In this document: piece by piece, positions 2,926 to 60,582 of the stretch
Numbering within the stretch: the first letter of the stretch is position 1
How the letters are laid out: each line of letters opens with the position of its first letter
Source of the DNA: Hydrolagus colliei
Taxonomy: Eukaryota
Direction: 5' to 3'
Length of the DNA: 64,000 bases
Assembly (NCBI GenBank): GCA_035084275.1
Contig: CM068742.1
Span: 54,312,001 to 54,376,000 of the forward strand
Notes under the pieces: model-generated
The model's database searches: none
What the model was told of the DNA's origin: nothing
The model's input: the letters and a program-made list of their open reading frames with translations, nothing else
Translations under genes and position numbers: made by a program

Positions 2926-3891
2926 AGAGCAAAATGTTCTGGAATGCTTGAATTCCATTGACTGGTGTCTCTATTTCACTGGTAACCACTATCCAGCATC
3001 CATAGTGGTTTGAGTAAACTGAAACTTACAGAACTTGCTTTGTCCCTGGATGCTGTGCACAGAAGCTGCTACTTTCCTTGGTATTCTACATGCAGCTCTC
3101 CTGAGTATCCAAACACTTCTTATACAGAAAATCAGAGACTGATGCTTCAAATCACTTCCACTTAAAAGTTGGTGTCAAGCAGAATTTATATTTAGCAAGG
3201 AGAAATGATCAGTTAAAAGGTTTCTGAAAGGGCTGCTTTTTTGTGTTCCATTTTGTATCTGATGATAAATTTGAGTGCTTGGCAAAGTGAAATTTGCTTG
3301 TCCTCTGTGCTTTTACTTGTTTGATAGTGGTTACCAGAGACTGATATCGAGGAGAGAATAGTCCTGGTCCCGCCAAGGATGGTGGAATTAGCATGCAGCT
3401 GTGCTCCTCTGATAAATGGATTCTGTTAGGTCACCGAGGGGAACACTGTGACATTAAGTGATTTACAGTCCTTTTCCTTAATGAAATTGTTTCAGTGAGA
3501 TGATGCTGAAAGCTTTTAATGGATAGCTTTTCTTGATGTAATGAAATTGCATTCCGTCGGCATTTAATATAAGGCACGGTTATTATTTACTGGAGCTTTC
3601 CTGCACTTCTCTTGCTGCAAAGCTCTCGGGAAGGACAAACGTTTTCAGGTGTTCGGTGCAGACTTCAAAACAATTCTAAGGCCAGAGGTATTTTACAGTG
3701 GGAGAGTGTGTGCTTGTGTATCTGTTGGTAACAGAGAAACAGAGAGAGAGGGAGGGGGAGGGAGAGCACCTGTAAGAGCACTTCTGCAACCGCAGGCCTG
3801 GTTACAGAGTCAGGATAGATGGAAGCTATGGGGTACCTAACACTGCTAATGTTCTGCTTCTTTACGTTTATCCTGCTAATCTGTTTAACAG

Positions 3892-3963
3892 GCAACTGGA
3901 TTACAACCTAATCAGCTGCATTGAGGATGGAGCGTTCAGAGCTTTGCGAGACCTGGAAGTGCT
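3892..3963 (+). CDS. SLIT2: SLIT2 exon ~6 (72 nt), D1 LRR: [24 protein letters not shown]
   Basis: tttaacag|G...CT|gtaagt; translated by hand. Confidence 0.96.
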
Positions 3964-6412
3964 GTAAGTACTGCTTCAATCTGGCTGTGAAAGGCAGCCC
4001 TACAGACAGGGATAACGGACGTGTTAGTTTATCTAAAGTTTGCAGTGCTTTTGTGTTAGGCTGAGAGCTGGAAAAGATTTATGATACATTCAAGAACAAT
4101 TCCCATTCCACATTTCATGCTCTGCAAAAATCCCAGAGACTGAAGAGACGCCTCTGCTATATTTCTCACTTAACTGCCCATGCAGGGGTGAGTAGGCATG
4201 CACATTAGGTATTATTGAGGACAAAGTGATACTCGTGCTACCTGACAGAGATGGCAGGTCAAAGAAAAAGAATGGACTTTCATTTTTAGGCCACCTCATC
4301 GTATCAATTAATGACCCAAAATGCTTCACATTTATTGTTGTCCCATGTAGTGACATTGGTTTCAGATTTCAAAGTAAGACAAACGTGAGTCGCCCGCAGA
4401 CGTCTACTGTGGGTCAACTATACTTGTGATGAAGTATAGACTGAAGCTCAATGAGCTTATACCGAAAGCATTAGTTAGAGTCACTGCACAAAACTGAAGG
4501 GAGTTTATGAACAGTACTTAACAGCTGGCAATAGAAACTATAGGGAGTTGCCAGTTCAATAGAATCTGATGAAGAGAAAAGCTAAGGCTGGGAAAATCTT
4601 ACACATTCCTGTCATCTTTGACCTTGTGACTCAGTGGTTTACATTCTTTGGGTACTGGTAGGTATGTGAGGAAGCTAAGAGTAAGTTCCTCTTTTTGCAA
4701 GTATTTTAATCACCCAAATATTTGAAACAAAGGCTATCTCACTCCTCAATTAACAGGGTGGAAGTCTTGCCCAGAGTAGCTCCTTGGCTCCATTGATTTG
4801 CGAAAGGTTAAACCTTTTGGTTTCAGTAGCTGTCAAAGATCAAGTCAATTAATTCTAAACTCTTGATGTAGAAGAAGGAGCCTTGCAGGAAATGGCACAT
4901 ATTAACTCATGTTAAACTGCTCAAATAAAGGGTTTCCAAGCACCTGATTTACTGCACGCAGTTAAAATGTCTGCTTCTTCTGTTCTTTGGGGGAAGGATT
5001 GTGGTGCTTTTCTTTGCAGCTCTGGATTCGGGAGGTGGGGTGGTGGGGGGGAGGGATGTCTGGGTTTTTTTCTGCTCACTAGGCTGAATCTAGGGCAGTT
5101 CATACCGAATTCTCTTATTTATAAAAACAAAGCATTGATTTAAGTCCTTGGCTTGCTGTCCTTCAACATTACAGTTAAGATATCTCAACAGGCAACTATA
5201 GGTCTGCTGGAGCTTCACAGGATAAAAGGTCAAAGAAAATTGCATTCAGTTTCCAGCCCTCTAGTTCATAAAATGGCTGTAAAATGGAAACGCTGTGCAT
5301 GTCCTTGAGGAGGTTGGTCCCTCTGTGTAATCCAACTGAATGGTTGTAAATTGCAGTGACTGGTTAGAGAGAAGGAATCTTACTGAGCTCAGGCATCTCT
5401 GTATCAATTGCATTGTGATAACTGTCGGGATTCAGTGAGGTTCTTCTCCAAAAATGTATGTAAGCTTCTTGCAAGAATGTCAGAGGGAGAGGGAGAGAGA
5501 GAGAACAGCTGTCGATATGGTGGGCAGGGAGGTGACCTGGCCATCAGAGGTAGGTTGAATTTGTTCCGAAAGCAAAATTCTGCTGTTATTCTGACCCTAT
5601 TATTTTCAGCCGGTTCATCTTCCCAAGTGATTCAAAATGGAGTTGCTTGAAGACATGGTTATTTTACTGACCTGAATTTTAGATTCTTTCCTTTGCAACT
5701 TCATTTGGTACAAGCATCTGACAATATGGAGTTTGCCTTTTTCAGAAAGCACAGGAGCTAAACTGTTGCCCCTACCAGGTAATGAATAAACCAAGGTCAG
5801 GAACCTCCTTAAAGGCTGGCATCTTTAATGGTTACCACATTTCACCCAAGGGCATGCATAATGAACTTCATTTGAAAATAAAATTTAATAAAATGTCACT
5901 GATTTTTGTAGTACAGCTGAAGTTTGCTTGGTAACATACAGACTGTTATTATGTCACTGGAAACACTGAAAACAAAGTTGTCCAAGCCTTTATAATTTGC
6001 ATCTAAGTGTTGCCGTGCATTGTAATTTAATTGTTAAACAGAGCAGGCAGGCACTCAGTGAAGGCAAGCAAGTGCTATCAGCATTTCAAAGTGAGATAGT
6101 GCACAATTGCTGCTGGTGTTAGAAGGCTGCCCTGTCTGCCTTTTGAAAGCCCACATTTCCATTCTGCTATGAAGCATACAGTCATGAATAATGATCTTAT
6201 ATTAAATACTCAGTCTTTGTACAGAGCGAGAGTATTTAAAAACAGTTCGATCACAGTTCTTTGAACCTCCCATAAAATGAGAATACATTCCTTTCCCTCC
6301 ATCGCTAGTCATAGACAGCTTTATTGTCAACAAAGAAACCTCTAGAATAAACCCAATATCAGATAGACTTTGATAACCTTGTGAAATTTTAGCATCTCTT
6401 CTTGTTTTACAG

Positions 6413-6484
6413 CACCCTTAACAATAACAACATCTCCCGACTTTCAGTGGCGAGTTTCAACCATATGCCCAGGCTCAGAACCTT
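6413..6484 (+). CDS. SLIT2: SLIT2 exon ~7 (72 nt): [24 protein letters not shown]
   Basis: ttttacag|C...TT|gtaagt. Confidence 0.96.
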
Positions 6485-7906
6485 GTAAGTAAAAAAAAAT
6501 TTCAATGTATTTTTACTTATATGAACTGAACCACAGAGTAAAACAAAATGCTTCACAATAGAAACAACTAACAAAATTAGAAACTGTATCAGCATGTATA
6601 ATCTTTCTTTGGGTTTAAATCTTGTTGCAGCTGCTTCTTAGAGATTATCCTAAAGATATAAATTTTAGGGGTCAGAATCAATAGAATGGTCCGTACAAAA
6701 CACAATGAAAATATCTATTATCTAAGATGTTCACTCTTTATACTACCTTGATGCAAAATGCTAAGTATTAATATACTGCACTGATGTATGTTTGATCTCA
6801 GTTGCACTGGGATGCCTATATTGCAATGTACAGTACTTAATTAAAAGTAACTGTCTATCCAATCATCTCTCCATAGTGGAACATTAGCATGCTAGACTGC
6901 GGCCAATGCTTCAATACCCATTAGGGTGTATTTTGTTAGGATTGAATGCATTGACTAAAAGGATCTGATGAAATTACATTACATAGTCAAAGAAGCGTTA
7001 CGAGCAGGCAACTTGATTTATGGTTCTCGGCGTCCTTTATTTTACTTTGAGGAACAGGAAAGCCAGTCTAAAGTAATTTACCTAATTTAAGGGATACATT
7101 TATCTGATATTTTATTGATGGTGAGGTGCTCTTTGCTTGTTGGAAGGGAGCCATATTCCTATGAAGGTCCTGCCTGGAGAAGTAACTGACTTAATTCCCC
7201 TGCTCGCTGCCATTTGCGTCTTTTAATTCCACAGATTGCACTGAGCATGAGTCTCGAGGGAAAGGAATCTGTTAATCCTTTCTCTGTGATTAAACAAAAA
7301 AAAGGAGGAACTCAGAAAAGGATATGAAAGGAGTACTTTATATTGAATTATCATTCTATCTTGTTTAGAAGAAAAGAAATGTCATTTGCTAAAAGGATTT
7401 TGGAAGCAGTTTCTATAGAGGCTAATAATGACAAGACTTATTGGTATTTATAATTGGGAGCCAAAGCTTCTATTAGCATTATTTTTTTCTTGCTGACAGT
7501 ATGTTACCACTGAGATGCAATTTACTTTTCTTGTCTTTTGTTAGACTTAAGCTTCCGAATTCCATAATTGGTTTTTTGGCTCTCACATGTTTGCTGAGCC
7601 TGTAATACAGTCAAGGGGAAACGCTCTGAATTGATTTTGTGACGGCTGAGCCAACTTTTATTAATTAATTAATCTCCAGCTAAAAGGCTGCTGTCAGAGG
7701 AGTGTTGCTAAAAAAAATCTCGCAACTATTGGAAATGGTCCTGTCAAGGAGCTTTAAATTTACAGATGAGCTTAAGGGATTGATACCTCATTTGTTCTCC
7801 TTATTACACTAACCTCGGGTCTCTGAAATTGTGCTGCTTGCTCTCCTTTGCTCATTTCAATGTATTGACTTTATTCCTTCTTCTTTTTCGTCGTCTTCTT
7901 CTTCAG

Positions 7907-8070
7907 CCGGCTCCATTCAAATAATCTGTACTGCGATTGCCACTTGGCCTGGCTCTCTGATTGGCTGCGGCAGCGTCCGCGGGTTGGGCTGTACACACAG
8001 TGCATCGGACCGGGACACCTGAGAGGTCATAACGTTGCCGAGGTGCAAAAGAGGGAGTTCATTTGCTCTG
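7907..8070 (+). CDS. SLIT2: SLIT2 exon ~8 (164 nt), D1 LRRCT: [54 protein letters not shown]
   Basis: cttcttcag|C...TCTG|gtaaga; overlaps ORF 7944..8153. Confidence 0.97.
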
Positions 8071-8973
8071 GTAAGAGTGAGAAAGAACTGTTACAACTAA
8101 GAGAAATCAGTTGCCTGAGGCACTCTTGTGCCGTGCTAACCTGGTTCTTTTAGAAACTGTAAACAGCCACTTTTATAATATTTTCATTTAAGTCTGTACG
8201 GGATAGGTATGAGGCAGAGGCACACAGCAGCGTTTATAGAAAGAATCACTGAGGATTGGGGTTTGTATTAACTGCACATCAGTGTTTAACCTGAGTTGAA
8301 TTTTTCAGTGTAGATTTGAAATGTATAAATGTACAACACTTATTTAATATGATCTCTCCGTTCTACATGCCTTTTTTAATTAATGCTTATTTTTGACTAT
8401 GATGCTGTATGATATCTGTTTTCTTAGAACATTTCTAAACTAACATCTTGCGTGACTGTCTAAGCTTACTCCCTCCTATTTTGATCTCAATAAAACTGTA
8501 GGATGAATGCTTTAATAGTTGCTGTGGTTTGTTCACCATTACTTCTCTTGGTGATCCCAGAGATATTGAACCGAACATCACAGCGTTACCTCTGTAACTA
8601 TAATTTTGTGTTGGTTCTAAGCTTGCTGTTTCTTTTGGTCTTCAAAGTGGACCCATACCGCTGATTCTATCACATCTCTGGAGAATACAACCACCTCCGT
8701 AAATTAAAATGTCTTGGTTTTTTATTTTAATTTTGCTAACAAATCAAAACATAACACTTTAGATTTGCAATTCCCCTCACAAGGTGGCCCTTCACGGCAT
8801 GCATAGAATGTGATTTTGCTGAGATTGTGCCTCGATCTTGCCAAAGTGTATATTTATTCAGGCATCGGATAGTGAAAGGCTGCTCCATGACCTGCTTGTT
8901 GGTAGTCCCGGTGTGCTTGCTTTTCATTACTGCGGTTGACTAGCAAATTGCTCTTAGACGTCTTTCCCCTCAG

Positions 8974-8979
8974 GTTTTG
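8974..8979 (+). other. Candidate 6-nt phase-1 microexon (adds GF)
   Basis: tctttcccctcag|GTTTTG|gtaagt; keeps frame between exons 8 and 9; sequence-only prediction. Confidence 0.45.
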
Positions 8980-9162
8980 GTAAGTATGAGGCGAGTCTTT
9001 GCGTTTATATTGCTTTACTTTTGTACTGCTTTTCTTACTGTCTAAGGAAACCTGTAACCGATTGCTTGGAATGTTAACTACACGCCTTTGCCTGCAGTCT
9101 GCGGAAGGTACTTGCATGGCACTAATCTCATTGTGTTTTCTTTTCTCTCTCCCGCTTTCCAG

Positions 9163-9174
9163 ATGAGGATGAAG
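9163..9174 (+). CDS. SLIT2: SLIT2 alternative 12-nt microexon (DEDE) with a GC donor
   Basis: actaat...ttttcttttctctctcccgctttccag|ATGAGGATGAAG|gcaagt; same position as the mammalian SLIT2 DEEE insert (recalled). Confidence 0.88.
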
Positions 9175-12130
9175 GCAAGTTTTATTTCTGTTTTGTATAC
9201 TGTACTTTGCATAAGATGTGTTGACAGGGCCACTCTTTATTATGCAGGAGTATCCAGCATTCTGTACAGATTGTAAAGCTTTTTAGAATATACCTGGATC
9301 ACATTGACACCCCTGTTTGTACAAACTGGCTTTGAACAATTGCATTTACTTTCCTTGTCGCTGTTTAACACCCTCATCCATCACCTTGTAGAAGGCATGG
9401 GGCTTCTGCCCTGTAGTTGATAATAGGTACTCCTCAGTGAATTGAGAGCAAGTATTTTAATTGAAGAATCATAAGGGCTAGCTAAAATTCTGGTTGATAT
9501 TTTATATCGAAGCATTATAATCACATTAAATGCAGGGAAATTTTGTATTTTGTATTAGAACGCAGTAATATAAAACATCAACCAGAATTGAAATATCTCA
9601 AAGCACTTTATAAGATCTACTGTAAAGTGCGTTGGTGCTGGATTCGTTGGAGAATGCAGTAGCCAACATGCGCTTGGCAATGTTGGATTTCCACATTACA
9701 GTTTTGCATCACCAAAGGTGCTACACGTAGCGCCGATAGGAATTTCAGCCCGCTGTTGGATGTCCCAGAGCATAAGAGCAAAGCTCTCAGGTTCAGCACA
9801 TGAACTGAAAGATTTGATCGTCTTTCTTCTCATTCACTGAGACTTGCCCGTTGTGCTTCCCAATATTTGAAAGGTTGTAAATTATCCTCACATTTATACA
9901 GACTCTTCTTGACCCCTTGCATTTCTGTGGACAGCTAAAAGCGCGCTTTGATCTAGGACCAATTTTAAAGATAACGTAGCTAAATGTTATAGTGTGATTC
10001 CAATTTGCTTGTTTTTTTTAAATATATATATTTTCTATTTGCATCAACTTTTCTCCTCTCCTCTTTTGAAAGTGTTTTGGCTTTTGCTTTCCTTCTCTTG
10101 GGTTGTGATTCCATAGGTGCCCAATCATATCTTGCCCAAATTTCCACTGAAACAATGATTGTTCAGCACCTTGGGACATCCTCCGGATTTGAAAGGCGCT
10201 ATACAAGTGTAATTTTGTTGTTGTTGTATTCATGTGTGAACCTTGACAGGGAGTGTTAGTATTACCGAAGATATCGCAGTCAAACCTGATCCTGACATTC
10301 ACATACATGCAATCACATACATGACATTCACATACATGTAGCATCTAGATCAGAAGAAGAATGAATGCCTGTCTGACTTTTCCCTCCCAAACTCAAGAAT
10401 GTCAAAGTCATTTGTAGCACCCTCAAATACTTTCTTATCTATGATCAGATCATTTAGTTTAGATGGGATTAGAACCTGGATTGTTTTAGTGCTTTACCGG
10501 GTGGTGTTTTTACTTATTAAACCATCCTTTGTGTGGGTTCATGTACAGTAGTTATTTTTGAGATGACATACAGAGAAATTTCATATTTTGCCCATATATC
10601 ATATTTTATATTGTTAATCACCCCATAATTTAGATCCACACTCCTCACACAGTCACACTGCAGGGAGAGAACAGACATGTCAATAATACTTGTCAGGGCA
10701 TTACTACAACTTGTCAGACACCAGTCATACTGGGATGTGCACACACTATTTTTATAGCTAGGTTCTATTTCTCTCAGAATACCATTTTCTGGACTTGACA
10801 GCAAGCTTTTGTCCCCGACAGACTGGGAAGACATGCTGTTATGGTTACTAGTCATGTGGATGAAACATACACACACAAAAAATGCTGCATCCATTTAACC
10901 GGAGTGAATTTTTAATTAGAATGAAGTAGTGTTCAAGAGAAAGTCATTCAATCCCCTTTGTCAATTCAGCCTGCTGGGTTTATGTGTGTGATACAGTATC
11001 ATCTGTTTAGTTGGATAATCTCAGGTGCTGATTCTAATGTTTTGTTCTATATGACCCACATTGCACACAGGAAATGTAGCTGTGTTAGTACTTGAACTCA
11101 TTTGTGTAAACGCCAGATTTAAAGTTCCAAGTACATCCCTTGAGGCTTTTACAACTCAGTATTAAACGCCGGGGATAAAGCAATCTCCTTCTTCCTCTTC
11201 CACCTAATTTCAATTTGAATAGAAGTCATCATTTTCTTCTGAAATGAAGCTTCCTCCTCTGGTTCGGCAATTGTAGGGGAGCCGTACAGACCATGGTGGC
11301 TCAGATTTGATTCCTGGACTGTGCTCAGTTAGCTCATCTTTGCTAGGGCAAATTGAAGGTGCTTCATTTGACTTCAGTTTCGCAGGGAAAATCATTCAGG
11401 GTTTATTCAGGGACCCTTTGCTGGAAATACATATGTGTAGGGATGGGACCAGATCAGACTTAGATGTTGTGATTCTCTCCTCCCCCACATTCAAATAACT
11501 TTCAACGACTCATATATGAACAATAGCAGCGCGGATAAATTTGGGGGCAGCCCGTTATAACATAATGGTATAGGTCCATTAGCGGTGAAATGGAGTGCTG
11601 ACAAATGACCGTCGGTTCATGAAACCATTGCTGACACCACATCCAGCCTGTGCACTATGCATTAGATATCACCTCCTTTGCAAAGTGCATTTTGCGCATA
11701 ATGTAAATGTGCAAGAAGTGGCAACCTAATAACCCAGACGGGCTGTATTTTTAACAAGGGAAGCCCCTTAAGTACTCCTGGGTCAACGGTGGACAGGCGT
11801 TATCAGTGTATTCATGTTTAACAAGGACAAAGTCTAATGGGGCCCCCTGTACCTGTGAATCATATTCCAGTGGAAAAGAAAATTAAAGTAGGAGGTGAGA
11901 AAAACAGAACCCAGATTTTATCTCGCTGTTATGGCTCTTGTCTGTTCACTGCGATTCAGCACTCGTTATATATTTATGGTTGTGAATTGATGCAATTCAC
12001 ATGAAAGGTAGGTTGCTTAGTAAACAGTTGCGTGAAAGTTATGCAATATCCAGTGTGAGCAAGGGAGCCAGATCCCTGAGAATCTCGAATGATCAAATGT
12101 ATAGCCTGTATTGTATTTCCCCTGCTGCAG

Positions 12131-12275
12131 GCCACCAGAGCTCTCTCACACAATCATGCAGCGTCCATTCGAAGTCTTGCCCTGCCGTCTGCACGTGCAG
12201 CAACAGTATTGTGGATTGTCGTGGCAAAGGCCTCACCGAGATACCCATCAATCTCCCGGAGACGATCACTGAAAT
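12131..12275 (+). CDS. SLIT2: SLIT2 exon ~9 (145 nt), D2 LRRNT: [49 protein letters not shown]
   Basis: ctgctgcag|GC...AT|gtaagc; overlaps ORF 12001..12279. Confidence 0.96.
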
Positions 12276-15177
12276 GTAAGCCCTCAGCTTCCTTACTCGT
12301 GTCATGTGGTGTGCATGCAACATCTGGTGTGCTTACTTTGTAATTCCCTGGCAGATGCCCTCTGCCCCGTCGAGCCGAGCTCAGGAACTCAAAAGATTCA
12401 CACCGGCTACACAGTCAAGATAGAAAGCATCGGTTGGGAAGAGGATTTGCATTTTTGTGCCAAAGAGATTATCTCGGATCTTGTAAACTCAATCACAAAC
12501 TGCACTCATGAAAGTTTCAGTTTGTTCCTGAACAGAACAGTTTTTTTCCAGCTGAATACAACAGTTGTTATTGTTTACAAATATGTGAACACTTGATTGC
12601 TATTCGGTTATATCATCGTTCATGACCTCCCCATGTTTTGCCGACTGACTTAAATTCAAGCCCCAGAAATCAGAGGTAAATTGTTATTCCTCAAATTATA
12701 ATAATAATAATCTTGGCATTTGAAATAGTACCGGTCAGAAGGATATATTAAAGAGATTTGCGGGATTTACTGTAAGATGTAGTGACTATATTTTGTAAGC
12801 AACTGGCATTCAAGTGTGAATAAGATCAATAAACTCAAAATCTAATAGTGGTCAAAGGAGGCGTCAGACTCATAAACATTATCATGAAGACAGGAAAGGG
12901 GAGGGATCGCCCACCTGTGAGACAGTTTTTAATTGTTGATTGTCTCGACTGTTTAGCAAGGTTGGAAAAAATATTGCCAGTGATAATTATCACATCTTAC
13001 ATACCAATTTTTCTCACAATTTGACACCACTGCTTTGAATTGGCAGCTCACTCAAATTCAAATGAGCAGTATTGCTCCCCTCACCCTTTTTGGTCAGCCA
13101 AGTGTCTGACCCGTGTAAAATCCATCACCATGCTTACGTGTATCTATATCAGACTGAGAGTTCCATCCATGTCACCTACACATGGAAACTTCCCTGTATC
13201 AGGAAAGGAGTGCACACCTTCTTTCTGTAGGTAAGCAGTTTGCCAACATAATCCAGGAGACTATTAGGCACAGATTAGCAAGAGGCTACTAGACCCCTAA
13301 GTGTGCGTTGGGATACTGCTGAAGTTTAACCATCTGAAACCCAAATAAAGTGGCATAGAGAGCATTGTATTGCAAGCTTTCTGCTGTTTGGCCATCTAGG
13401 AACACCCTTTAAGGCTTGTTGGGTTAACCAGAGTTGAATGGGTATAAATCCTGCTCCTCACTACTATAGTGATCTGCGCACAAACTCCAATTCTTTGGTG
13501 CCACAATGAAATTAAGTGCCAATTATGAGTTTGGTGTATCTGTGGAGGAATCATTAGGAAGGAGAGTGTTTCCTGCTTTGGGCATTCAGTTTCTCTTGTG
13601 GGCTAAGTCTATTTGTCTGTGTTTCATGATTTATCCCGTGCCTTTCTAAACCACAGTTTGAAGAGTGCAAACAGTTCAATTACAAGAAATGAATAGGAGA
13701 GAGAGACCGAACCAGAATGCAAAATGTTGTGATGAGTCCAGCAAGTCATGCTAGTAGGGCCTCTGAGAGTGAGGTCTTCAAAGGAAAGCGGGAGGAGATT
13801 CTTGGATTAGGCGAATGTGATAGATGAGTTTGTTAACAGTTTCCCCCCTTTGATATACCAGAACCAAGAATAAACAAACAATCAGAGGGAAACTAAAAGC
13901 CCTCATTTAGATGGATGGTCCCTCACTGGGCGGGTGGCCTTGCCTGCTGGTACTAATATTCACTGAAGAGTGTGTGGAGATGGATGGGGTGGTGTAGATG
14001 CTAAAGTTACTAAGCCTTACTCTACCGAGAAAACAGGTGGACATTGCCAGCAGATAATACATTATCTTTAAGGAGTAAAGTGATCTCTCCACCGCCCCCA
14101 TCTCATCTTCCACTTCCCCTCCCTTTGATGACTGACCTGCAAGTAGCAAGGCTGAAGTGAGTTCTAACCAGAAGCAAAATCTCAGAACAGATTCATTCAG
14201 CTATGGATGGGTTTCTTTAGTTAACTCGTCATTCATAGGTGGGCTTGACACCAAGAGAGGCTTTAATGTTCCAAACTTCCATATTGTATCTCTCACCCTC
14301 ATGGGCTAAGTCATAGCATAATGTACATCTTACCCTCATGTACCTCTGTGTTGTTCATTCTAGTATATCTACTCAGCTCCCCATATCGCCTACCATTATG
14401 TACCTACTCTATCTCCCGACTATTTGTCGTTCTCAGGTCCATTGTCCAACTCCTCTGTATCTCCGTGTCTCTCATTTTCATTCACACTATGTTGTGCAGA
14501 CACAATGACATTGTATTTCCAAGCCTGGAAAGCTCCCCTGGTATCAGTCAGTTGGCCTGTCTTCCTCTCTTGTCTCCCATGATCCTGTAGATGTTTCACC
14601 ATAACGAGATTTTACCTGTGTGTCAGGAATCTTTGGAAGCTTTCAGCCCAGAAGCTTGGATAAATCCCCAGTTGCCTTTTAACAGTCTGTCTTCAGCTTG
14701 CTCGCACATGCTTTTGCCATTTACTGTGCGGAGCAGCTGGGAAAACGTGAACAAGTTGTTAGCTTGCAGCGTGAAGTGTACAGATGCTGATGGGGCACGG
14801 TTATAAAACTGACACTCAGCTTAATCTCCCTTATGGGAGTCTTAGATTAAAGAGGTGAAACGGTTGAAGTTTGGACCTGCTATGTTTTATGCAATAGTAG
14901 AAAAGCAGGCTTAGGATACAATTTTTTCTTTAAAAAGCTTCGCAAAATTCAAAAAGTATCATTCAAAATGCTTTAAAAAATTCATGGATTTACATGGGCA
15001 TAGACTGTTACAGCATGTAATAGGTAAATCTGACGAACTACCCCATGCCAATGTTTCTAAGCCTCTATGTAGGATTCCATCTTTTCTAAACCCCTTTCCT
15101 CACTCTCCCTCTATTTCCTTTCCCTCATCTATGGTGGCAAATAAAATTTTAAAAAGCCTTTGTTAACTTTTGTTCGT

Positions 15178-15444
15178 GGAGTCCTGTAGCATATTGGTTA
15201 GCGAACTCGCCTCACCAGGGGAAGGACACGAGTTTGATACCTGGGCAGGACAAAACCTTTTTCCAAAATGTGTTCACTCAATCCATGACTGTTTATGGGA
15301 CACTGCTGTGTGAAATTGGCTTCCACATTTCGCCTGCCAAATATACACTCAATTCACTTTACAGTAATATTTTGTGAGACGCTTTGATTTGCCTCAACTG
15401 TGTGATCAGATGTTAAATCAAATGCAAGGATTATTATCATTATT
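15178..15444 (+). mobile_element. tRNA-head/Deu-core/L2-tail SINE, diverged
   Basis: A-box-like tagcatattggttagc, B-box-like gagtttgatacc, core gggacactgctgtg..aattggct, tail aaatgcaaggattattat. Confidence 0.8.
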
Positions 15445-18400
15445 TTTTATAACCTGACTCTGAGGGCTGTTCTGAGCTTCTACTGTCTGGAGAGCACCCA
15501 CTTGGATAAGGTAGAGGAGGGCATCTGTTGCGCACAGATTAAGAGTGTACTCCCAGCATGATCCACAGTCTTCAGGAGGGGAGAATACAGGAGGGAGATG
15601 TGTTCACTTTGACACTACTGTATTTCGCTTTGTGTCCTAAATGATGTCCCTTCATGGGCTTGACAGAAGTGACCCTACCCACAGTAAAGAAAGAGCTTGC
15701 ATGTTAAAACACCTTCCCATATAATTTCACAGCTAATTTCGATCAAGCTTGCCTTCACATAGGATAATGCTTCATAGCACTGTACAAAGACAGGGTTGAA
15801 CATCAAACAGGTGTGGGCGACGAGAAGGGAGAAGTGACCTTAGGCATGGTGAAAGATTTTAAGATTGGACTTAAACAAAGTTAGATCAGGGACAAGGGAG
15901 AGGGAAGGAATTCCAAAGATTGGAAGATTAGACTCTGAAAATGACTGTATTTCAGCAACCATTTATAACGACAACGATCCATAAATAGCATTGATAACAA
16001 CAAATTACATTTGCGCAGTGCCTTTCACATTGGGAGAACTTCCCAAGGAGCTGGACTGTCAGGGATTTGCATGTACATAATCAATTAATTTGGAGGATCA
16101 TTGGCCAAAACACTATGAGAAACTCCCTTCTCTTTTCATATCGTGTCATGGAATGTTTAATTCGCATCTGAATAGGCAGAACCTTGATATAATTCCTCTT
16201 CTGACAATGTAGCACTCCCTCAGGATTGTACCCTACAGCCAGTGGTTAACCTGTCCATTGCTTATGGCACTAATATTTGGTCTGTTTCTATGGAAATTCA
16301 TGTAAACTGGCTAATTTAGTCTCTGGATTTGCGGTACCATCTGCAACAGAATACTCCACCCCAATGAGTAGTGAGAGAGGTTTGTGAAAATATACACTAT
16401 TTGCCTGATAAGTGTGTCAATTTTCATTAACCCACCACTCCCTAGTGTCTGTTGTGTATCACAAGGATGTGGTTTGTGTTCATTGTTGTCTGGATCTTGT
16501 TGACAGTTTATCTGTGTTAGTGGATATACTTAGCTCCACCCTATTGCCCAGCCCCCGTCCATCCACTTCTGCTAGTCTATTATTCACTTCCGCTCCTGTC
16601 TCTTTCCCAACTTGTTCTCTGGTCTTGTGTGGGCCTGTCTTGCCTTGTATCCCTGGCCCATGCTGCTGTGCTCAATCCAGTTTGATTGCACAGCAACGGG
16701 GAAACCTGTAATGGAAAATATATTAACGGGGATGAGTTGAGATAACTCACTCCGAGATAGTGCCTGAAGGCCGATGTTTCACATGTCTCACTTTTCACAT
16801 AACATGTCTCCAGCTTCTTTGCCATATATTTGATGGAAGGGGAGAGTTGCAGCTGGGTATGAGACATACAGGGAATGGTGAGAAATCTGAGTTTGTCACA
16901 AGCTGATTCACTCCTCTGAGAGCTGACGAGTGCTATGGCGATACATTGACCATCACTTCTGAATAGTTTACCTCCCAATAATCTGCCTTGTCCTGTCATT
17001 ATTCCCTGTGCATATGTTTCGGGAGGAGGGGTTTGGTCCGCTGGGTATCTGGGAAACCCATCACCATGCTTAACAGTATCCAAACCAAACTGGGAAATCC
17101 ATGCATCTCACCTGCACATGGAACTTTCAGAGATAAATTGCTGCCATTATGCTCTGTAATGCGGGGATTCACTAGTGGGGCAGAATAATGCTTAATTGTG
17201 AATAGCTCTGCCCTGATCAGGATGACAAGGGAAAACAAGAACAACATTTTGCATTTATACATTGCCTTTCATGTTTTCATGTCAGGAGAAACGTAAAAGC
17301 GTTTGACTGGGAGTCGCGGGATGGGTGGGTGGGAGGAGGTAGTAGGGAAATGGATAGGAGAGAAGGTAGGTGCCCAAAAGCACAGTAAAAAAAAGTAACC
17401 GGTTTTGTACCAGCTTTGTTCGTTTGGGCAGGATGGGTCAATCTGGATCACTTTCGCACACATACATCTTCCAGTGGCTTTTATGAGACCTGATACTAAA
17501 CTTCTGGGTAGCACACTTAGCCATAGTACATTAAGCAGGGTAGCATCTAATAGAAAGGGAGAGAGGAGAATATAAGCTTATTGTGTGTCATTAACTAGAC
17601 CAGCATGGGTATCTCAGCTAAGGACACTTGATGTGATCAACTCACCTGGAATGAATTAGATCTGACTTTAATGGGCACTGTTTGTTTTAGTAAGTTTGGA
17701 ATTTTTGAGGAAAGTGTGTGAACCTTTGAATGGAAGGAGTTACATTACCAATGAGGCATGACAAAGGAAGGATTTGGTTTTCCTCTCCGTATGCTTTGAT
17801 CAAAGTCATGCAAATTTCTGTTCGCGTTCTCGTTGTGTTCCAGAAAAATTGTGGCCGATTGCAGATGGATAAGAGGAGGATTGGTGATTATACAGAGGAG
17901 AGAAACATATGAATTTGATTTGACTTGCTTTCTTAATAAACAGAGAATACGTCTGCATTGTTGGAATCCTTTTGTAGTGCTGTAATCTAAGCTTGAGTCT
18001 AGTGTTTTTCCTTCTTTCATCGTATCTGGGTGTTGTGAGTGAATCACTGTTATCTAGATAAATCCTACACAAATAGATTGTGCAGATGCAGAAGCCACTA
18101 TGTTAAGTAAGGGATCAGAGAGGGGTGGAAAGACGGGGGCGGTGGGGTGGTGACGAGATTGCTGATAACTCTGGTCTGGTTCTCATTCACTCCAGATAAG
18201 TGTTGTGAAAGTCCACTGAATGTTCTCATTCTCTTGTGGGAAGGTAAACTAATGATAAGTATCTGGAAGAGAGGAAGGACTGTTGACCGGCCAAGGCTGT
18301 AGCTCTAATTCTCAACATAGTAGATCTGCACTAAACCTAGTGACATTGAGCTATTTTAGAAATGTTTTATACGGAGTTAGTTAGTGCAGACCTTTCCTTT

Positions 18401-18834
18401 CTGAACTCCACTGTAGAATTTTAAAAAGACGCGAATCATCCGTATCTCTTTCAATTAAAATGAATTTGTTAAGCCCTTTGGCGGTGAATGGTTTTGTCCT
18501 GTTAACTGCACGTGCAGTTGAATAACCATGTGAAGAGTTTGAAATTATTAATGTGAGGAAGGAACAAAATAAGAATGTTGACTGGCTTCCAGCAAATGGT
18601 TATGAAAAGCTTATTGCACATAGGGGGAAAAAGGTGTGCAATGTGATACGATAATTACCACCCACAATAACAACAACAACAACTTTGATTTATATAGCAC
18701 CCTCCATGTCAGACGGCGTCTCAGAGCACTTTGCTAATTATCATAACTGATATGATGCATTTCCCCTCATGCTGGCAGTATTGAGAATAAAGATGATTTA
18801 AAAAGGGCGATTTAGGGGTACTTATTTTCTTTTC

Positions 18835-18869
18835 TCCCTCCCTCCCTCCCTCCCTCCCTCCCTCCCTCC
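18835..18869. repeat. (CCCT)n microsatellite
   Basis: Direct reading. Confidence 0.9.
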
Positions 18870-18997
18870 ATACCCCCACTCACCCCACATACCCATGTAG
18901 ATGTTGATTTAGAAAAGCATTTCTTTCTTTACAATGGTAAAATTGCTTGTCAGTAGGCTTAGAATTGAACAGCGGCATTTGTCTATGTAACAATACA

Positions 18998-19135
18998 ATA
19001 ATAATATTTACATTTGACACAGCATTCTTATCACATCGAGACATCTCAAAGCTCTTTGCATGCTGTAAAGTGTGTGACTGTGAACAAATGCGGCAGCCAA
19101 TTTGCGTACAGCAATGTCCCACAAACACAAATAGT
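18998..19135 (-). mobile_element. Partial Deu-core SINE
   Basis: gcggcagccaatttgcgtacagcaatgtcccacaaaca core with diverged tail. Confidence 0.7.
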
Positions 19136-20329
19136 GGGCGTTTGTCCATATTTGCTTTCAAAAACCAGAGATATCTAAAATGGAGCAATTTGTAAGGATT
19201 TGAGGAAAAGGTTAGTAATTTCAACTCAATGGATTGCTCTTTGATATAGCCCAAAACAGAAACCATGGGGCTGAATAGTGTCACTCTGTGCTGTAGAGTC
19301 GTATCATTCAAAAATGAATAAGGAAACATAAATGTTCAGTACAGACACAGGCCATTAAGCCTATCAAGTCCATCTGCTACTTGTATAACTAAATTCACCC
19401 TATTTTTATTAATCCTATTTTGTAGCTGTTTCTTCACATAGCCTAATATTTTTACAGCTCGCACGGTGTGAAATTGTTGCCTTGAAGGGGGATGATAAGG
19501 TCAAGGAGAGAAATAGAAGAGGAAAAAAGTTGCATTTAAAATATTCAAGCAGTGGCAGTGGAGAGGATTCCTAGACCCTGATGGTTCTCTGTGCTTTAAA
19601 CGGAACCTTCTTGGCTTTGCAGCACTGAGCAAGCTGAGTGCAGGGTAAAATATGCCATCTTCACAAAAGGATTTGTAACTAATGAATCTCGGGTGTGTTG
19701 GAGCCAATGAACTCTGCTCAAATGTTAACTTCACAGGAACAAAAATTGAGATCCAGTTGCATTTTCCACCCTTGTCCCGCCGAGTCTCCTTTAATCCAAA
19801 CAATTTGACTCAGTTGGTTTCACTCTCCCTTCTGAGTCAGGAGGTTGTGAGTTCAAGTCAGGTCAAGACTTGGAACTGAAAAGACACTCCAATGTAGTGC
19901 CATCCTTTGATGATGAAGACCCTTTCTGCCTCTTCAGATGGATGCTAAAGATCCCTCGGCACTATTTGTAAACAGTTGGTAGTTTTGGCCGGAGTCCTCA
20001 CCAACAATTTCCCAGATAAAATTGGTTGCTATCTTCATGGCTGTTTATGAAATATTGCTGTGTGCACATTGTTCACCTGCAATACACATTACAAATTTAC
20101 TTTTAGATGTAGAAATTCACCTCAGAAGTATATCAACAACAACTTAAAAAGCGCCCCTGATGCAGGGTAGATTCCAAAGGGTCCCATGTCCTAAGTTGCT
20201 TGCCTAGAAGATAAATTCACAGCATTTTATAGTAAATCCTGTAAAACACTTTGAGACATCCTCCTGATGTCACTTTGAGACATCCTTCTGGTATATCACA
20301 TCACAAAATTGGTTTGGATGAAGAAGGTC

Positions 20330-20545
20330 CTCAGCCCATCTGATCTCATGCCTCCAGAACACCCAGCCTACCATTCCCCCAAACTGTATCAAGCTGCTTT
20401 TTAAATGAGTCCAGTATCCCAACGTCTACCACCTGGCAACCTGTTCCAGTCATTGATTTCCCTCTGTGCAAAGAAAAACTTCCTCTATCTGTCTTGAAAT
20501 TGACCTTCACAAATGTAAATCTGTATCCTCTTGTTCTATTGTCAA
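20330..20545 (-). mobile_element. CR1-type LINE 3' fragment
   Basis: ORF 20346..20552 contains RTRG...VVDVGILDSFKKQLD, typical of the CR1 ORF2 C-terminus. Confidence 0.7.
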
Positions 20546-21903
20546 AATACATTAAAAAAAATATTGACCTGGGCTTACTAAAATGTATGGATTTTTTTTT
20601 TTTTGCAACTTGACCCCTCCTTCATTCTGAAGGAAAATTTAAACAACCAAAGCACTCAACAGCAAGAAACAATACAATCACACATCGCCAAAAGTGCCAC
20701 ACATGCAGTGAGTGGCATTTCATCCCAAATATGGTTATGAAGCAGCTGCTGGTTTGGTGTTGACTAGACAGGATAGATGGTTTCATAAAATAGTGGTAGA
20801 CAGGTCGTGCTTTATGTGAGATTGTGTTTGATTCCTCTCGACAGTCTCAAGTGTAATCCTCATCAGAACAGGTTTCCAGGTTCATCCTGTACTTGATATG
20901 TTCTCGGATGTTTATTGTAATAATCTCTCTTCTGACAGCTTTGCCATTGTTGAATTTCTTCCTTTATAAGTCACCAATACTATTCAAGCAGTTACTGGCT
21001 TGCAATCGATGGTAGGCAAGCTTGAAGCCATTCTTCCCCACTCCCTGGAACGGAAACCCCCCATAATCCTTCCAATCCTTCCCTGATGAATCTTAATTTA
21101 GTCTAAAACCTATTTCAGTTACTGAAACTCATCTCCACCCCATATGATGCATTTAAAATTTTATTACTATGCTGCCAATTCCAATAACCATCCACAGACA
21201 TACATACAGATACATACACACACCCGCATACAGATACGCAGACATACGCACAATTCCGTGATAGTTCATTTGTCATAGAGATAATCTTGGAGTCGGTAAC
21301 TTGAAGTGAATCACAGTCCAAAGTGGGAACAGATTCTTGTCCCAGCAAGGATGAGAAGTGAATCATAGTCTGATATGCGAGGACACTGCTCTCCAAGCAA
21401 TCATGTGGAATGAGAACAGTTTGAATCAACAATTAACCCACTGTTTCCTCAGGCTCTCGTATGAATGCTCACCAGCCCACCACTCCTAGCACACACCCCG
21501 CCAGACCATGCTGTCCTTACAGTGCCCAAGTGGACTTTGACTCGGTTTGGATTTTGGAGCAGGATAGCTTTTTCACTATATTCTGATAGTGAATAAGCTA
21601 ACTGATATTCTATGGTCATCCTTGTTCAGCCATTTACAGTGTGTGATATGGACACACGTTAGTGACCAGGACAAATGGCTAGATTACACGTTTGTCTACA
21701 AAATAGCCATTTACAAAACATTATAGTAAATCGTGTGAAGCTCTTTGAAACATCCTCCTTAGGAAAGTGGCTATATCAAAGGCAAAGATTATTCTTACTA
21801 CTGATTATTATGTGACATGGATGGAGGCTGAGCACAGACCACCACTGCATTGCGCTTCAGTGAAGGAATACATTTTCAACATCAAATTATGCTTTCTCCA
21901 CAG

Positions 21904-36299: not shown

Positions 36300-36323
36300 C
36301 GAAAGAACAGTATTTCATTCCAG
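36300..36323 (+). CDS. SLIT2: SLIT2 exon 15, alternative 24-nt microexon AKEQYFIP
   Basis: tgtttgtag|CGAAAGAACAGTATTTCATTCCAG|gtaggt; peptide matches the known SLIT2 exon-15 cassette. Confidence 0.95.
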
Positions 36324-36468: not shown

Positions 36469-37099
36469 TGCTCTGTTAGCTACCTAGCCAAATCCTTAGG
36501 ACCCTGTGCTTCCTATGCCTGCTATACAGTTGCCAATATGATGGAGTTCTATTTATTCTCATTTTATTTTTGTGCCACTCCCCCACCTAGAGACCCTTTT
36601 TTAAGGTGGTTAATCTTGATGTATTCCCCAGACTTCTTTATTTGACTGGGGAACTTCCATGTATTTTACACACACACAAACACATACACAGATGGGAGAA
36701 TACCAATATTTGAAACTGGGAAGAAACAACTGGTGCTGACTTTGATTCACAGGTTTCCTCTCTCATGGTTCAGAAAGGGAAAGGAGAGCTTCTGGCCTAG
36801 GATAGTTGGAAAAGGCCAGATTAATGTCTGGACAATCCTGTGGGATTGAGGTACACAAACATTAGCAGTGGGCACAGTGAAGTAGGGGCCTTCATTCCTG
36901 AAAACAGGTGGAAATTCATGTGCACTCAATTTCTTCAATCCTCTGACTTGATCTGAGGCATCCGCTGTGCCTCTCTGAACCAAACACTTGAAGGTATCTT
37001 GAGTGTGCTCTTGGTTAATTGCCATTTGCATTTCCATCTTCACCTCTGCTCTTTCCATCTACAGGCTGAGATTGTAAGCTTCCCTTTCAGTTGGGCACC

Positions 37100-39473: not shown

Positions 39474-39491
39474 GAATTCACCATTTTGGCT
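39474..39491 (+). other. Candidate 18-nt phase-1 cassette exon
   Basis: AG-free, pyrimidine-rich tract 39360-39471, then cag|GAATTCACCATTTTGGCT|gtaagt. Confidence 0.3.
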
Positions 39492-58984: not shown

Positions 58985-59056
58985 GTCTTTGCATGGGAAT
59001 GATGTCTCCACTATTCCTTCAGGAGTTTTCAATGATCTTTCCTCATTGTCTCACTT
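58985..59056 (+). CDS. SLIT2: SLIT2 exon 25 (72 nt): SLHGNDVSTIPSGVFNDLSSLSHL
   Basis: ctttccag|G...TT|gtaagt. Confidence 0.96.
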
Positions 59057-60549: not shown

Positions 60550-60582
60550 AGATTCCAGGGCCTTGCGGGTTTTTGGTGCCAG
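60550..60582 (+). other. Candidate 33-nt phase-1 microexon (EIPGPCGFLVP) in the D4-EGF1 linker
   Basis: 113-nt AG-free pyrimidine tract, CTAAT at 60494, TGC at -9, tag|AGATTCC...GCCAG|gtaagc; in frame, no stop. Confidence 0.55.

What the first reader, a model, noticed from the sequence alone, without database searches (positions are those of the whole stretch)
8900..8990. Candidate 6-nt microexon (Gly-Phe) just upstream of the DEDE microexon
Seen: tctttcccctcag|GTTTTG|gtaagt at 8974-8979, with a clean pyrimidine tract and a consensus donor. It is phase 1/1, giving ICS-GF-DEDE-GHQ or ICS-GF-GHQ. Several TGC motifs lie upstream (8914-8951), and a 183-nt intron separates it from the 12-nt exon. 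By eye, 8930-9160 keeps more CpGs than the surrounding intron, hinting at constraint. Aligners routinely miss 6-nt exons. Against: an upstream AG at 8956-8957 could compete.
Basis: partly seen in the sequence, partly recalled or inferred. Interest (0 to 1): 0.7.

Follow-up and report, generated by a model that had tools for sequence, protein, structure and literature searches.

The report
Possible 6-base Slit2 exon, unconfirmed
A six-base stretch in the axon-guidance gene slit2 of a cartilaginous fish (likely a chimaera) has strong splice signals 183 bases before a known 12-base exon and would add two amino acids to a hinge of the protein if spliced, but no RNA or related-species evidence for it turned up, so it is roughly an even bet.

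Summary
The window holds slit2, likely of a chimaera. The described motif is there: tctttcccctcag|GTTTTG|gtaagtat at 8974-8979, in frame, 183 nt before the 12-nt DEDE exon (9163-9174).

For: its donor is the only GGTAAGT on the sense strand. Dinucleotide shuffles give 0.05 equally strong pseudo-microexons per 54 kb. Slit2 already has a tandem microexon pair in its next linker.

Against: the antisense strand has one equally strong 6-nt pseudo-exon. The AG-free zone is 14 nt, shorter than in all 25 mapped exons. 0 of 301 scorable Slit proteins carry Gly-Phe, while 34 carry the acidic insert. A mouse microexon catalogue has no 6-nt exon in this intron.

No RNA run or other vertebrate genome was available, so splicing and conservation are untested.

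Verdict: about 45% a real, probably lineage-restricted, minor microexon; 40% chance; 15% decoy or poison exon. If real, it is a new member of a known class. Earlier scan notes describe other Slit2 microexons in other genomes, not this one. Side result: the DEDE exon's GC donor is also present in mouse.

The parts
7907..8070 (+). slit2 constitutive exon ending LRR domain D1 (…EFICS + 1 base), phase-1 donor
   Evidence: 54-aa peptide 100% identical to Callorhinchus milii Slit2 models; boundaries
8914..8951 (+). Cluster of four TGC motifs; predicted branch A at 8939 (TTGAC); AG at 8942-8943
   Evidence: branch point is a yTnAy pattern match only
8956..8957 (+). Competing upstream AG; its use would give a 22-nt frameshifting exon (8958-8979) with a premature stop
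   Evidence: acceptor score -2.4 vs 8.9 on the window-trained matrix; translation
8960..8973 (+). Short pyrimidine tract and CAG acceptor of the candidate
   Evidence: sequence; score 8.9, within the range of mapped exons (3.6-13.7); AG-free zone 14 nt
8974..8979 (+). Candidate 6-nt microexon GTTTTG; would add Gly-Phe; splicing not shown
8980..8987 (+). Donor gtaagtat; 9 of 11 matches to the recalled U1 consensus, tied for best among the 26 donors compared
9113..9118 (+). Single TGCATG (RBFOX-type motif) between the candidate and the DEDE exon
   Evidence: motif meaning from PMC4317164 passages
9163..9174 (+). Known 12-nt microexon (DEDE) with a GC donor
   Evidence: acidic insert in 34 of 301 scorable proteins, shark to mammal; mouse sequence with the same GC donor
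12131..12275 (+). slit2 constitutive exon starting GHQ… and the N-cap of LRR domain D2
   Evidence: D2 crystal construct matches from residue 279 of P0133, about 15 residues after the insert

Best explanation
The six bases at 8974-8979 sit between a pyrimidine-tract acceptor and a near-perfect donor in slit2 intron 8 and are, on balance, likely a minor cassette microexon probably limited to cartilaginous fish, which would add Gly-Phe to the hinge between LRR domains D1 and D2, alone or ahead of the DEDE insert. Shown: the signals, the reading frame and the position in the linker. Inferred: U1 binding at the very strong donor compensates for the tiny exon and the cramped acceptor, so inclusion would be low by default and raised by a tissue-specific factor (RBFOX at the downstream TGCATG, or SRRM3/4 at the upstream UGCs). 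Also inferred: the 183-nt intron is long enough for both exons to be included, giving four linker forms (none, GF, DEDE, GF-DEDE) that would change hinge length and charge next to D2 without touching the D2 fold. That D2 is the Robo-binding domain is recalled knowledge.
For: The donor is the only GGTAAGT on the sense strand and the only GGTAAGTAT on either strand; about 0.3% of positions have an in-frame YAG with a strong pyrimidine tract 3-27 nt upstream. Shuffles give 0.05 equally strong hits per 54 kb. On the sense strand only the candidate and the known 18-nt exon reach both scores. The insert is in frame, has no stop, and falls in a linker that tolerates 2- and 4-residue inserts. The gene has a tandem pair in the D2-D3 linker (24 nt + 18 nt) in shark and Xenopus models. 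The 18-nt exon is also absent from the mouse table, so absence in mouse has a precedent. The flank shows CpG and TGC excess.
Against: One equally strong 6-nt pseudo-exon lies on the antisense strand, and sense and antisense counts are similar at looser cut-offs. The AG-free zone of 14 nt is shorter than in all 25 mapped exons (16-131) and the four known microexons (40-113), with an AG between the predicted branch point and the acceptor. 0 of 301 scorable proteins carry GF, including 21 chondrichthyan Slit2 models, of which only 1 has the acidic insert. The mouse MicroExonator table has one row in this intron, a 23-nt extension of the 12-nt exon. The human SRRM4-response sheet lists only the 12- and 24-nt SLIT2 exons. 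The CpG and TGC excess may belong to the DEDE exon's regulatory flank. The matrices were trained on 25 exons only.
Confidence: 0.45

Rival explanations
1. Chance pseudo-exon: a consensus donor and a short pyrimidine-AG happen to lie 6 nt apart inside the slowly evolving upstream flank of the DEDE exon and are not used above splicing noise.
For: Equally strong 6-nt hit on the antisense strand; similar sense and antisense counts at looser cut-offs; shortest AG-free zone in the gene; no protein model (0 of 301) and no mouse row; a genome-wide scan will meet such coincidences.
Against: Shuffles give only 0.05 per 54 kb. The hit lies within 200 nt of a real microexon, in a linker intron where the insert is in frame, and has a donor tied for the best consensus match.
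Confidence: 0.4
2. Functional but non-coding element: the strong donor acts as a decoy or poison exon that engages the spliceosome upstream of the weak GC-donor DEDE exon. It would tune that exon's inclusion or intron 8 removal, or be spliced from the AG at 8956-8957 as a 22-nt exon that triggers nonsense-mediated decay.
For: All 14 other upstream acceptors scoring above 1, and the 22- and 36-nt forms, give a stop or frameshift when paired with this donor. The neighbouring exon has a GC donor, also present in mouse. The decoy-exon model is published (PMC6097662, PMC7373989; search listing and abstract starts only).
Against: The 8956 AG scores -2.4 against 8.9 for the in-frame acceptor. The in-frame product is not a decay target. 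No retention or decay data exist here.
Confidence: 0.15

Closest known systems
SLIT2 12-nt microexon (DEEE/DEDE; human HsaEX0060157, identity with this exon inferred from its length and position)
   Same: Same intron, same phase, same D1-D2 linker. Human inclusion rises from 46 to 97% with SRRM4 and from 26 to 54% from progenitors to neurons (PMC7935315 supplements).
   Different: That exon is in gene models from shark to mammal, has a 53-nt AG-free zone and a GC donor. The candidate is half as long, has a strong GT donor, a 14-nt AG-free zone and no transcript evidence.
SLIT2 D2-D3 linker pair: 24-nt exon 15 (AKEQYFIP) plus 18-nt exon
   Same: Two optional in-frame microexons in one inter-domain linker of the same gene. 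Exon 15 isoforms differ in activity (PMC6406468 passages).
   Different: Both are in RefSeq models and lie 3.1 kb apart; the candidate pair is 183 nt apart and only one member is documented.
PTPRD meA microexons (meA3 + meA6 = meA9)
   Same: Combinatorial inclusion of two neighbouring microexons in an extracellular neural protein (PMC7821500 passages).
   Different: meA splicing and its effect on partner binding are demonstrated; nothing of the kind is shown here.
6-nt vertebrate microexons such as the one in a CACNA1 gene (Li et al. 2015)
   Same: Same size, missed by annotation (PMC4317164 passage).
   Different: That one has reads and splice sites conserved to Xenopus; conservation here is untested, and a mouse catalogue shows none.

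Membership tests
Neural (SRRM3/4-type) microexon | Length 3-27 nt, frame-preserving, no stop | tested here: met
   6 nt, phase 1/1, open frame in both contexts
Neural (SRRM3/4-type) microexon | Strong 5' splice site | tested here: met
   9 of 11 consensus matches, tied for best of 26 donors; matrix score 9.6, mid-range among mapped exons
Neural (SRRM3/4-type) microexon | UGC between branch point and AG | tested here: inconclusive
   One TGC (-25) lies downstream of the predicted branch A (-35); the other five within 100 nt lie upstream. The motif is present in only 74-79% of such exons (bioRxiv 2024.09.17.613571 section 10).
Neural (SRRM3/4-type) microexon | Strong pyrimidine tract and branch point set back from the AG | tested here: not met
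   The tract is short and abuts the AG, and an AG lies 17 nt upstream; feature as described
Neural (SRRM3/4-type) microexon | Spliced into mRNA, neural-enriched, SRRM3/4-responsive | not testable with these tools
   No RNA run was available to lay; only a DNA run could be laid
Neural (SRRM3/4-type) microexon | Conserved across vertebrates | tested here: inconclusive
   No orthologous intron DNA reachable. Indirectly negative: 0 of 301 proteins, no mouse row.
Tandem linker microexon pair (PTPRD meA type) | Two in-frame microexons in one intron, far enough apart for joint inclusion | tested here: met
   183-nt intron with its own branch motif and acceptor; sequence level only
Tandem linker microexon pair (PTPRD meA type) | Combinatorial isoforms observed | not testable with these tools
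   Needs junction reads or RT-PCR
Recursive splice site | Splicing to the AG rebuilds a usable donor | tested here: not met
   The AG is followed by GT, but the rebuilt donor scores -4.1
Poison or decoy exon | Inclusion gives a premature stop, or the element promotes intron retention | tested here: inconclusive
   The 6-nt form has no stop; the 22- and 36-nt forms do but use weak acceptors. Retention is not testable.

The most novel reading that the evidence does not exclude
Cartilaginous fish have an unannotated 6-nt slit2 exon that, with the GC-donor DEDE exon 183 nt downstream, forms a four-state switch for the D1-D2 hinge. The single RBFOX site between them would promote the hydrophobic Gly-Phe exon and repress the acidic one, swapping hinge chemistry next to the Robo-binding domain by cell type.
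Probability: 0.15. Interest if true: 0.5.

Novelty: new member of a known kind. Interest (0 to 1): 0.3.

Why it matters
If real, it adds one more optional piece to Slit2's inter-domain hinges and shows that tandem microexons can be gained or lost by lineage next to a deeply conserved one. That is useful for Slit-Robo and microexon-evolution specialists and is cheap to test with public chimaera or shark RNA-seq. It would not change the general picture: 6-nt microexons and tandem microexon pairs are known. The firmer result here is about the neighbour: the 12-nt exon has a GC donor in both this fish and mouse, which GT-AG-only discovery tools would miss.

Tried and rejected
Whole genome: none held. 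RNA runs: no RNA holder listed; my 4.5-kb, mostly intronic query left exonic words near the tool's 1/20 threshold, so this blank is no evidence. DNA run X1: too few differences to test constraint, and its listed joints come from repeats. Metagenome scan for the 12-nt exon pattern, hoping for host DNA: 51 loci, none matching the window by blastn or Slit2 by tblastn. Earlier-findings look-ups by place, sequence and the words Gly-Phe: nothing. RNA folding of 8880-9200: z = 0.42, no structure beyond shuffles. Recursive splice site: rejected on donor score. Longer exons ending at the same donor: all stop or frameshift, acceptors weaker. PDB search with exon 12131-12274 alone: no hit. No structure model of the D1-D2 hinge was obtained. 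Supplement searches with no Slit2 hit: PMC12626420 (file 13 not searched), PMC12868881 (1 file), PMC4317164 (file 1 not searched). PMC12626424 lists only the 27-nt zebrafish slit2 exon. Paper searches with no result: 'tandem microexons' and Slit2 + 'insert A' + 'splice variants' + 'leucine-rich repeat'.

Full report
Gene and context. Six-frame motif searches and tblastn place 25 slit2 exons on the + strand between 3892 and 61884. The peptide of exon 7907-8070 is 100% identical to Callorhinchus milii Slit2 models, and other exons differ from C. milii at a few residues, so the source is likely a chimaera. The window carries four microexons already seen in gene models of other species: 12 nt (9163-9174, DEDE), 24 nt (36300-36323), 18 nt (39474-39491) and 33 nt (60550-60582). 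All four lie in phase-1 linkers between domains.

The observation. The motif is as described: acceptor AG at 8972-8973, GTTTTG at 8974-8979, donor gtaagtat, and 183 nt to the DEDE exon. In-silico joining gives FICS-GF-GHQ or FICS-GF-DEDE-GHQ without a stop. A contig of DNA run X1 covers 3800-10176 with two substitutions elsewhere and one unplaced gap letter, at single-copy depth around the site, so an assembly error or repeat is unlikely. X1 may be the source sample.

Is it more than chance? I trained simple matrices on the window's own 25 acceptors and 24 GT donors, excluding the candidate. The candidate scores 8.9 (acceptor) and 9.6 (donor), both mid-range. On the sense strand only it and the known 18-nt exon reach both scores among 3-27-nt intervals; on the antisense strand one 6-nt interval does too. 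Forty local dinucleotide shuffles of 53,861 intronic bases gave 2 such hits (mean 0.05). At looser cut-offs sense and antisense introns gave similar counts: 8 vs 10, 5 vs 7, 3 vs 5, 2 vs 1. The donor is the only GGTAAGT on the sense strand (2 on the antisense), and about 0.3% of positions have an in-frame YAG with a strong pyrimidine tract within 27 nt upstream. So the chance rate lies between about 0.05 and 1 per window. Landing within a few hundred bases of one of four known microexons lowers it to roughly 0.2-4% (my estimate, after the fact). That is unusual for one window, but expected now and then in a scan of many windows.

Flank. 8930-9160 has 8 CpG (intronic mean 2.8; 1.9% of windows reach 8), but other parts of the same intron have 7-8. 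Four TGC lie in 40 nt (0.5% of intronic windows). Only the one at -25 lies between the predicted branch A (8939) and the AG. The AG-free zone is 14 nt, shorter than in all 25 mapped exons (16-131 nt) and far shorter than in the four known microexons (40-113 nt). The SRRM3/4 architecture described in bioRxiv 2024.09.17.613571 (passages and section 10 read) has a strong donor, a pyrimidine tract and branch point set back from the AG, and usually a UGC in between. The candidate meets the first feature, not the second, and the third only loosely. One TGCATG lies at 9113-9118, downstream of the candidate and upstream of the DEDE exon; RBFOX binding downstream of an exon is reported to raise inclusion (PMC4317164 passages). 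The region does not fold better than shuffles.

Protein evidence. Three homologue searches and three cluster listings returned 333 proteins, mostly Slit2 with a few Slit1. These are representatives and at most 15 listed members per cluster, for example 15 of 103 in the shark cluster, so the sample is incomplete. 32 lacked the anchor motif and were dropped. Of the remaining 301, 224 have no insert, 34 have an acidic insert (33 of four residues, and one of two residues in guppy), 43 are read-through or unclassified, and 0 have Gly-Phe. Among 21 scorable chondrichthyan Slit2 models only one has even the acidic insert, so the test has little power in the relevant lineage.

Published catalogues. 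The mouse MicroExonator table (PMC7821500, supplementary file 2, searched by coordinate prefixes and transcript id) has three Slit2 rows: 24 nt, 27 nt, and one row in intron 8. That row is a 23-nt entry with a coverage of 1, made of the 12-nt exon read on through a GCAAGTT donor to a later GT. There is no 6-nt row. The method looks for GT-AG microexons (passages), so it could have found a mouse equivalent of the candidate. The row also shows that the GC donor of the 12-nt exon is shared between this fish and mouse. The 18-nt exon seen in shark and Xenopus models is absent from that table as well, so absence in mouse does not exclude a fish exon. In human data (PMC7935315 supplements) the SRRM4-response sheet lists SLIT2 exons of 12 and 24 nt only; I saw only the first hits of several other sheets. 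Zebrafish tables list the 27-nt exon only (PMC12626424). PMC4387716 (passages) discusses the 27-nt exon. None of my ten paper searches listed a paper whose title or abstract start describes a 6-nt Slit2 exon; the library lacks most subscription papers, and VastDB was not available.

How it most likely works. If used, the exon would be defined mainly by its donor, which matches the recalled U1 consensus at 9 of 11 positions, tied for best in the gene. The cramped acceptor would keep inclusion low unless a tissue-specific factor helps (inferred). The 183-nt intron has its own branch motif and a strong acceptor, so joint inclusion with DEDE is possible (inferred). The insert falls just after the last cysteine of D1 and about 15 residues before the part of D2 covered by the crystal structure 2V9S/2V9T. 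It would therefore lengthen the hinge rather than alter a fold (inferred; no model was obtained). This works like the PTPRD meA pair (PMC7821500 passages) and like Slit2's own D2-D3 pair, but membership in the SRRM3/4 class is not established: one feature failed and the decisive ones are untested.

Rivals. Chance pseudo-exon (0.40) rests on the antisense hit, the short AG-free zone and the empty catalogues. Decoy or poison element (0.15) rests on the strong donor beside a weak GC-donor exon and on stops in every longer form; the decoy model I saw only as a search listing. A recursive splice site is rejected because the rebuilt donor scores -4.1.

Verdict. Observation confirmed; interpretation open, about 45%. 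At best this is a new, probably lineage-restricted member of a well-known class. Interest 0.3.

Noticed in passing
window 9172-9181: The 12-nt DEDE exon has a GC donor (AAG|gcaagtt). The mouse MicroExonator row for the same exon continues with the same GCAAGTT, so the GC donor appears shared by chimaera and mouse. GT-AG-only tools would miss the 12-nt form.
   Followed up: partly
window 37065-37073: 9-nt pseudo- or poison-microexon candidate with acceptor 13.0 and donor 9.5, between the 24-nt and 18-nt linker exons. In phase 1 it reads Gly-stop.
   Followed up: no
window 39474-39491 and 60550-60582: 18-nt and 33-nt cassette exons, each adding one cysteine, present in shark and Xenopus RefSeq models. 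They were not in the 7 C. milii models checked.
   Followed up: partly
window 19841-19846: Weaker 6-nt ag-N6-gtgagt motif (8.3/8.9) in a phase-2 intron inside an LRR; probably chance.
   Followed up: no
window 59023-59056: Strong internal acceptor (10.7) inside exon 58985-59056 that would give a 34-nt frameshifting exon.
   Followed up: no
proteins P0154 and P0270: A guppy Slit2 model has a two-residue insert (EE) at this linker, and a Xyrauchen Slit2-like model has DFNS. Gene models can therefore carry a 6-nt insert here.
   Followed up: no
window about 9900-10500, 12350-13600, 14800-17250, 18460-20900: Very high contig depth in run X1 marks high-copy repeats in these bins, while 5633-9298 is single-copy.
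   Followed up: no
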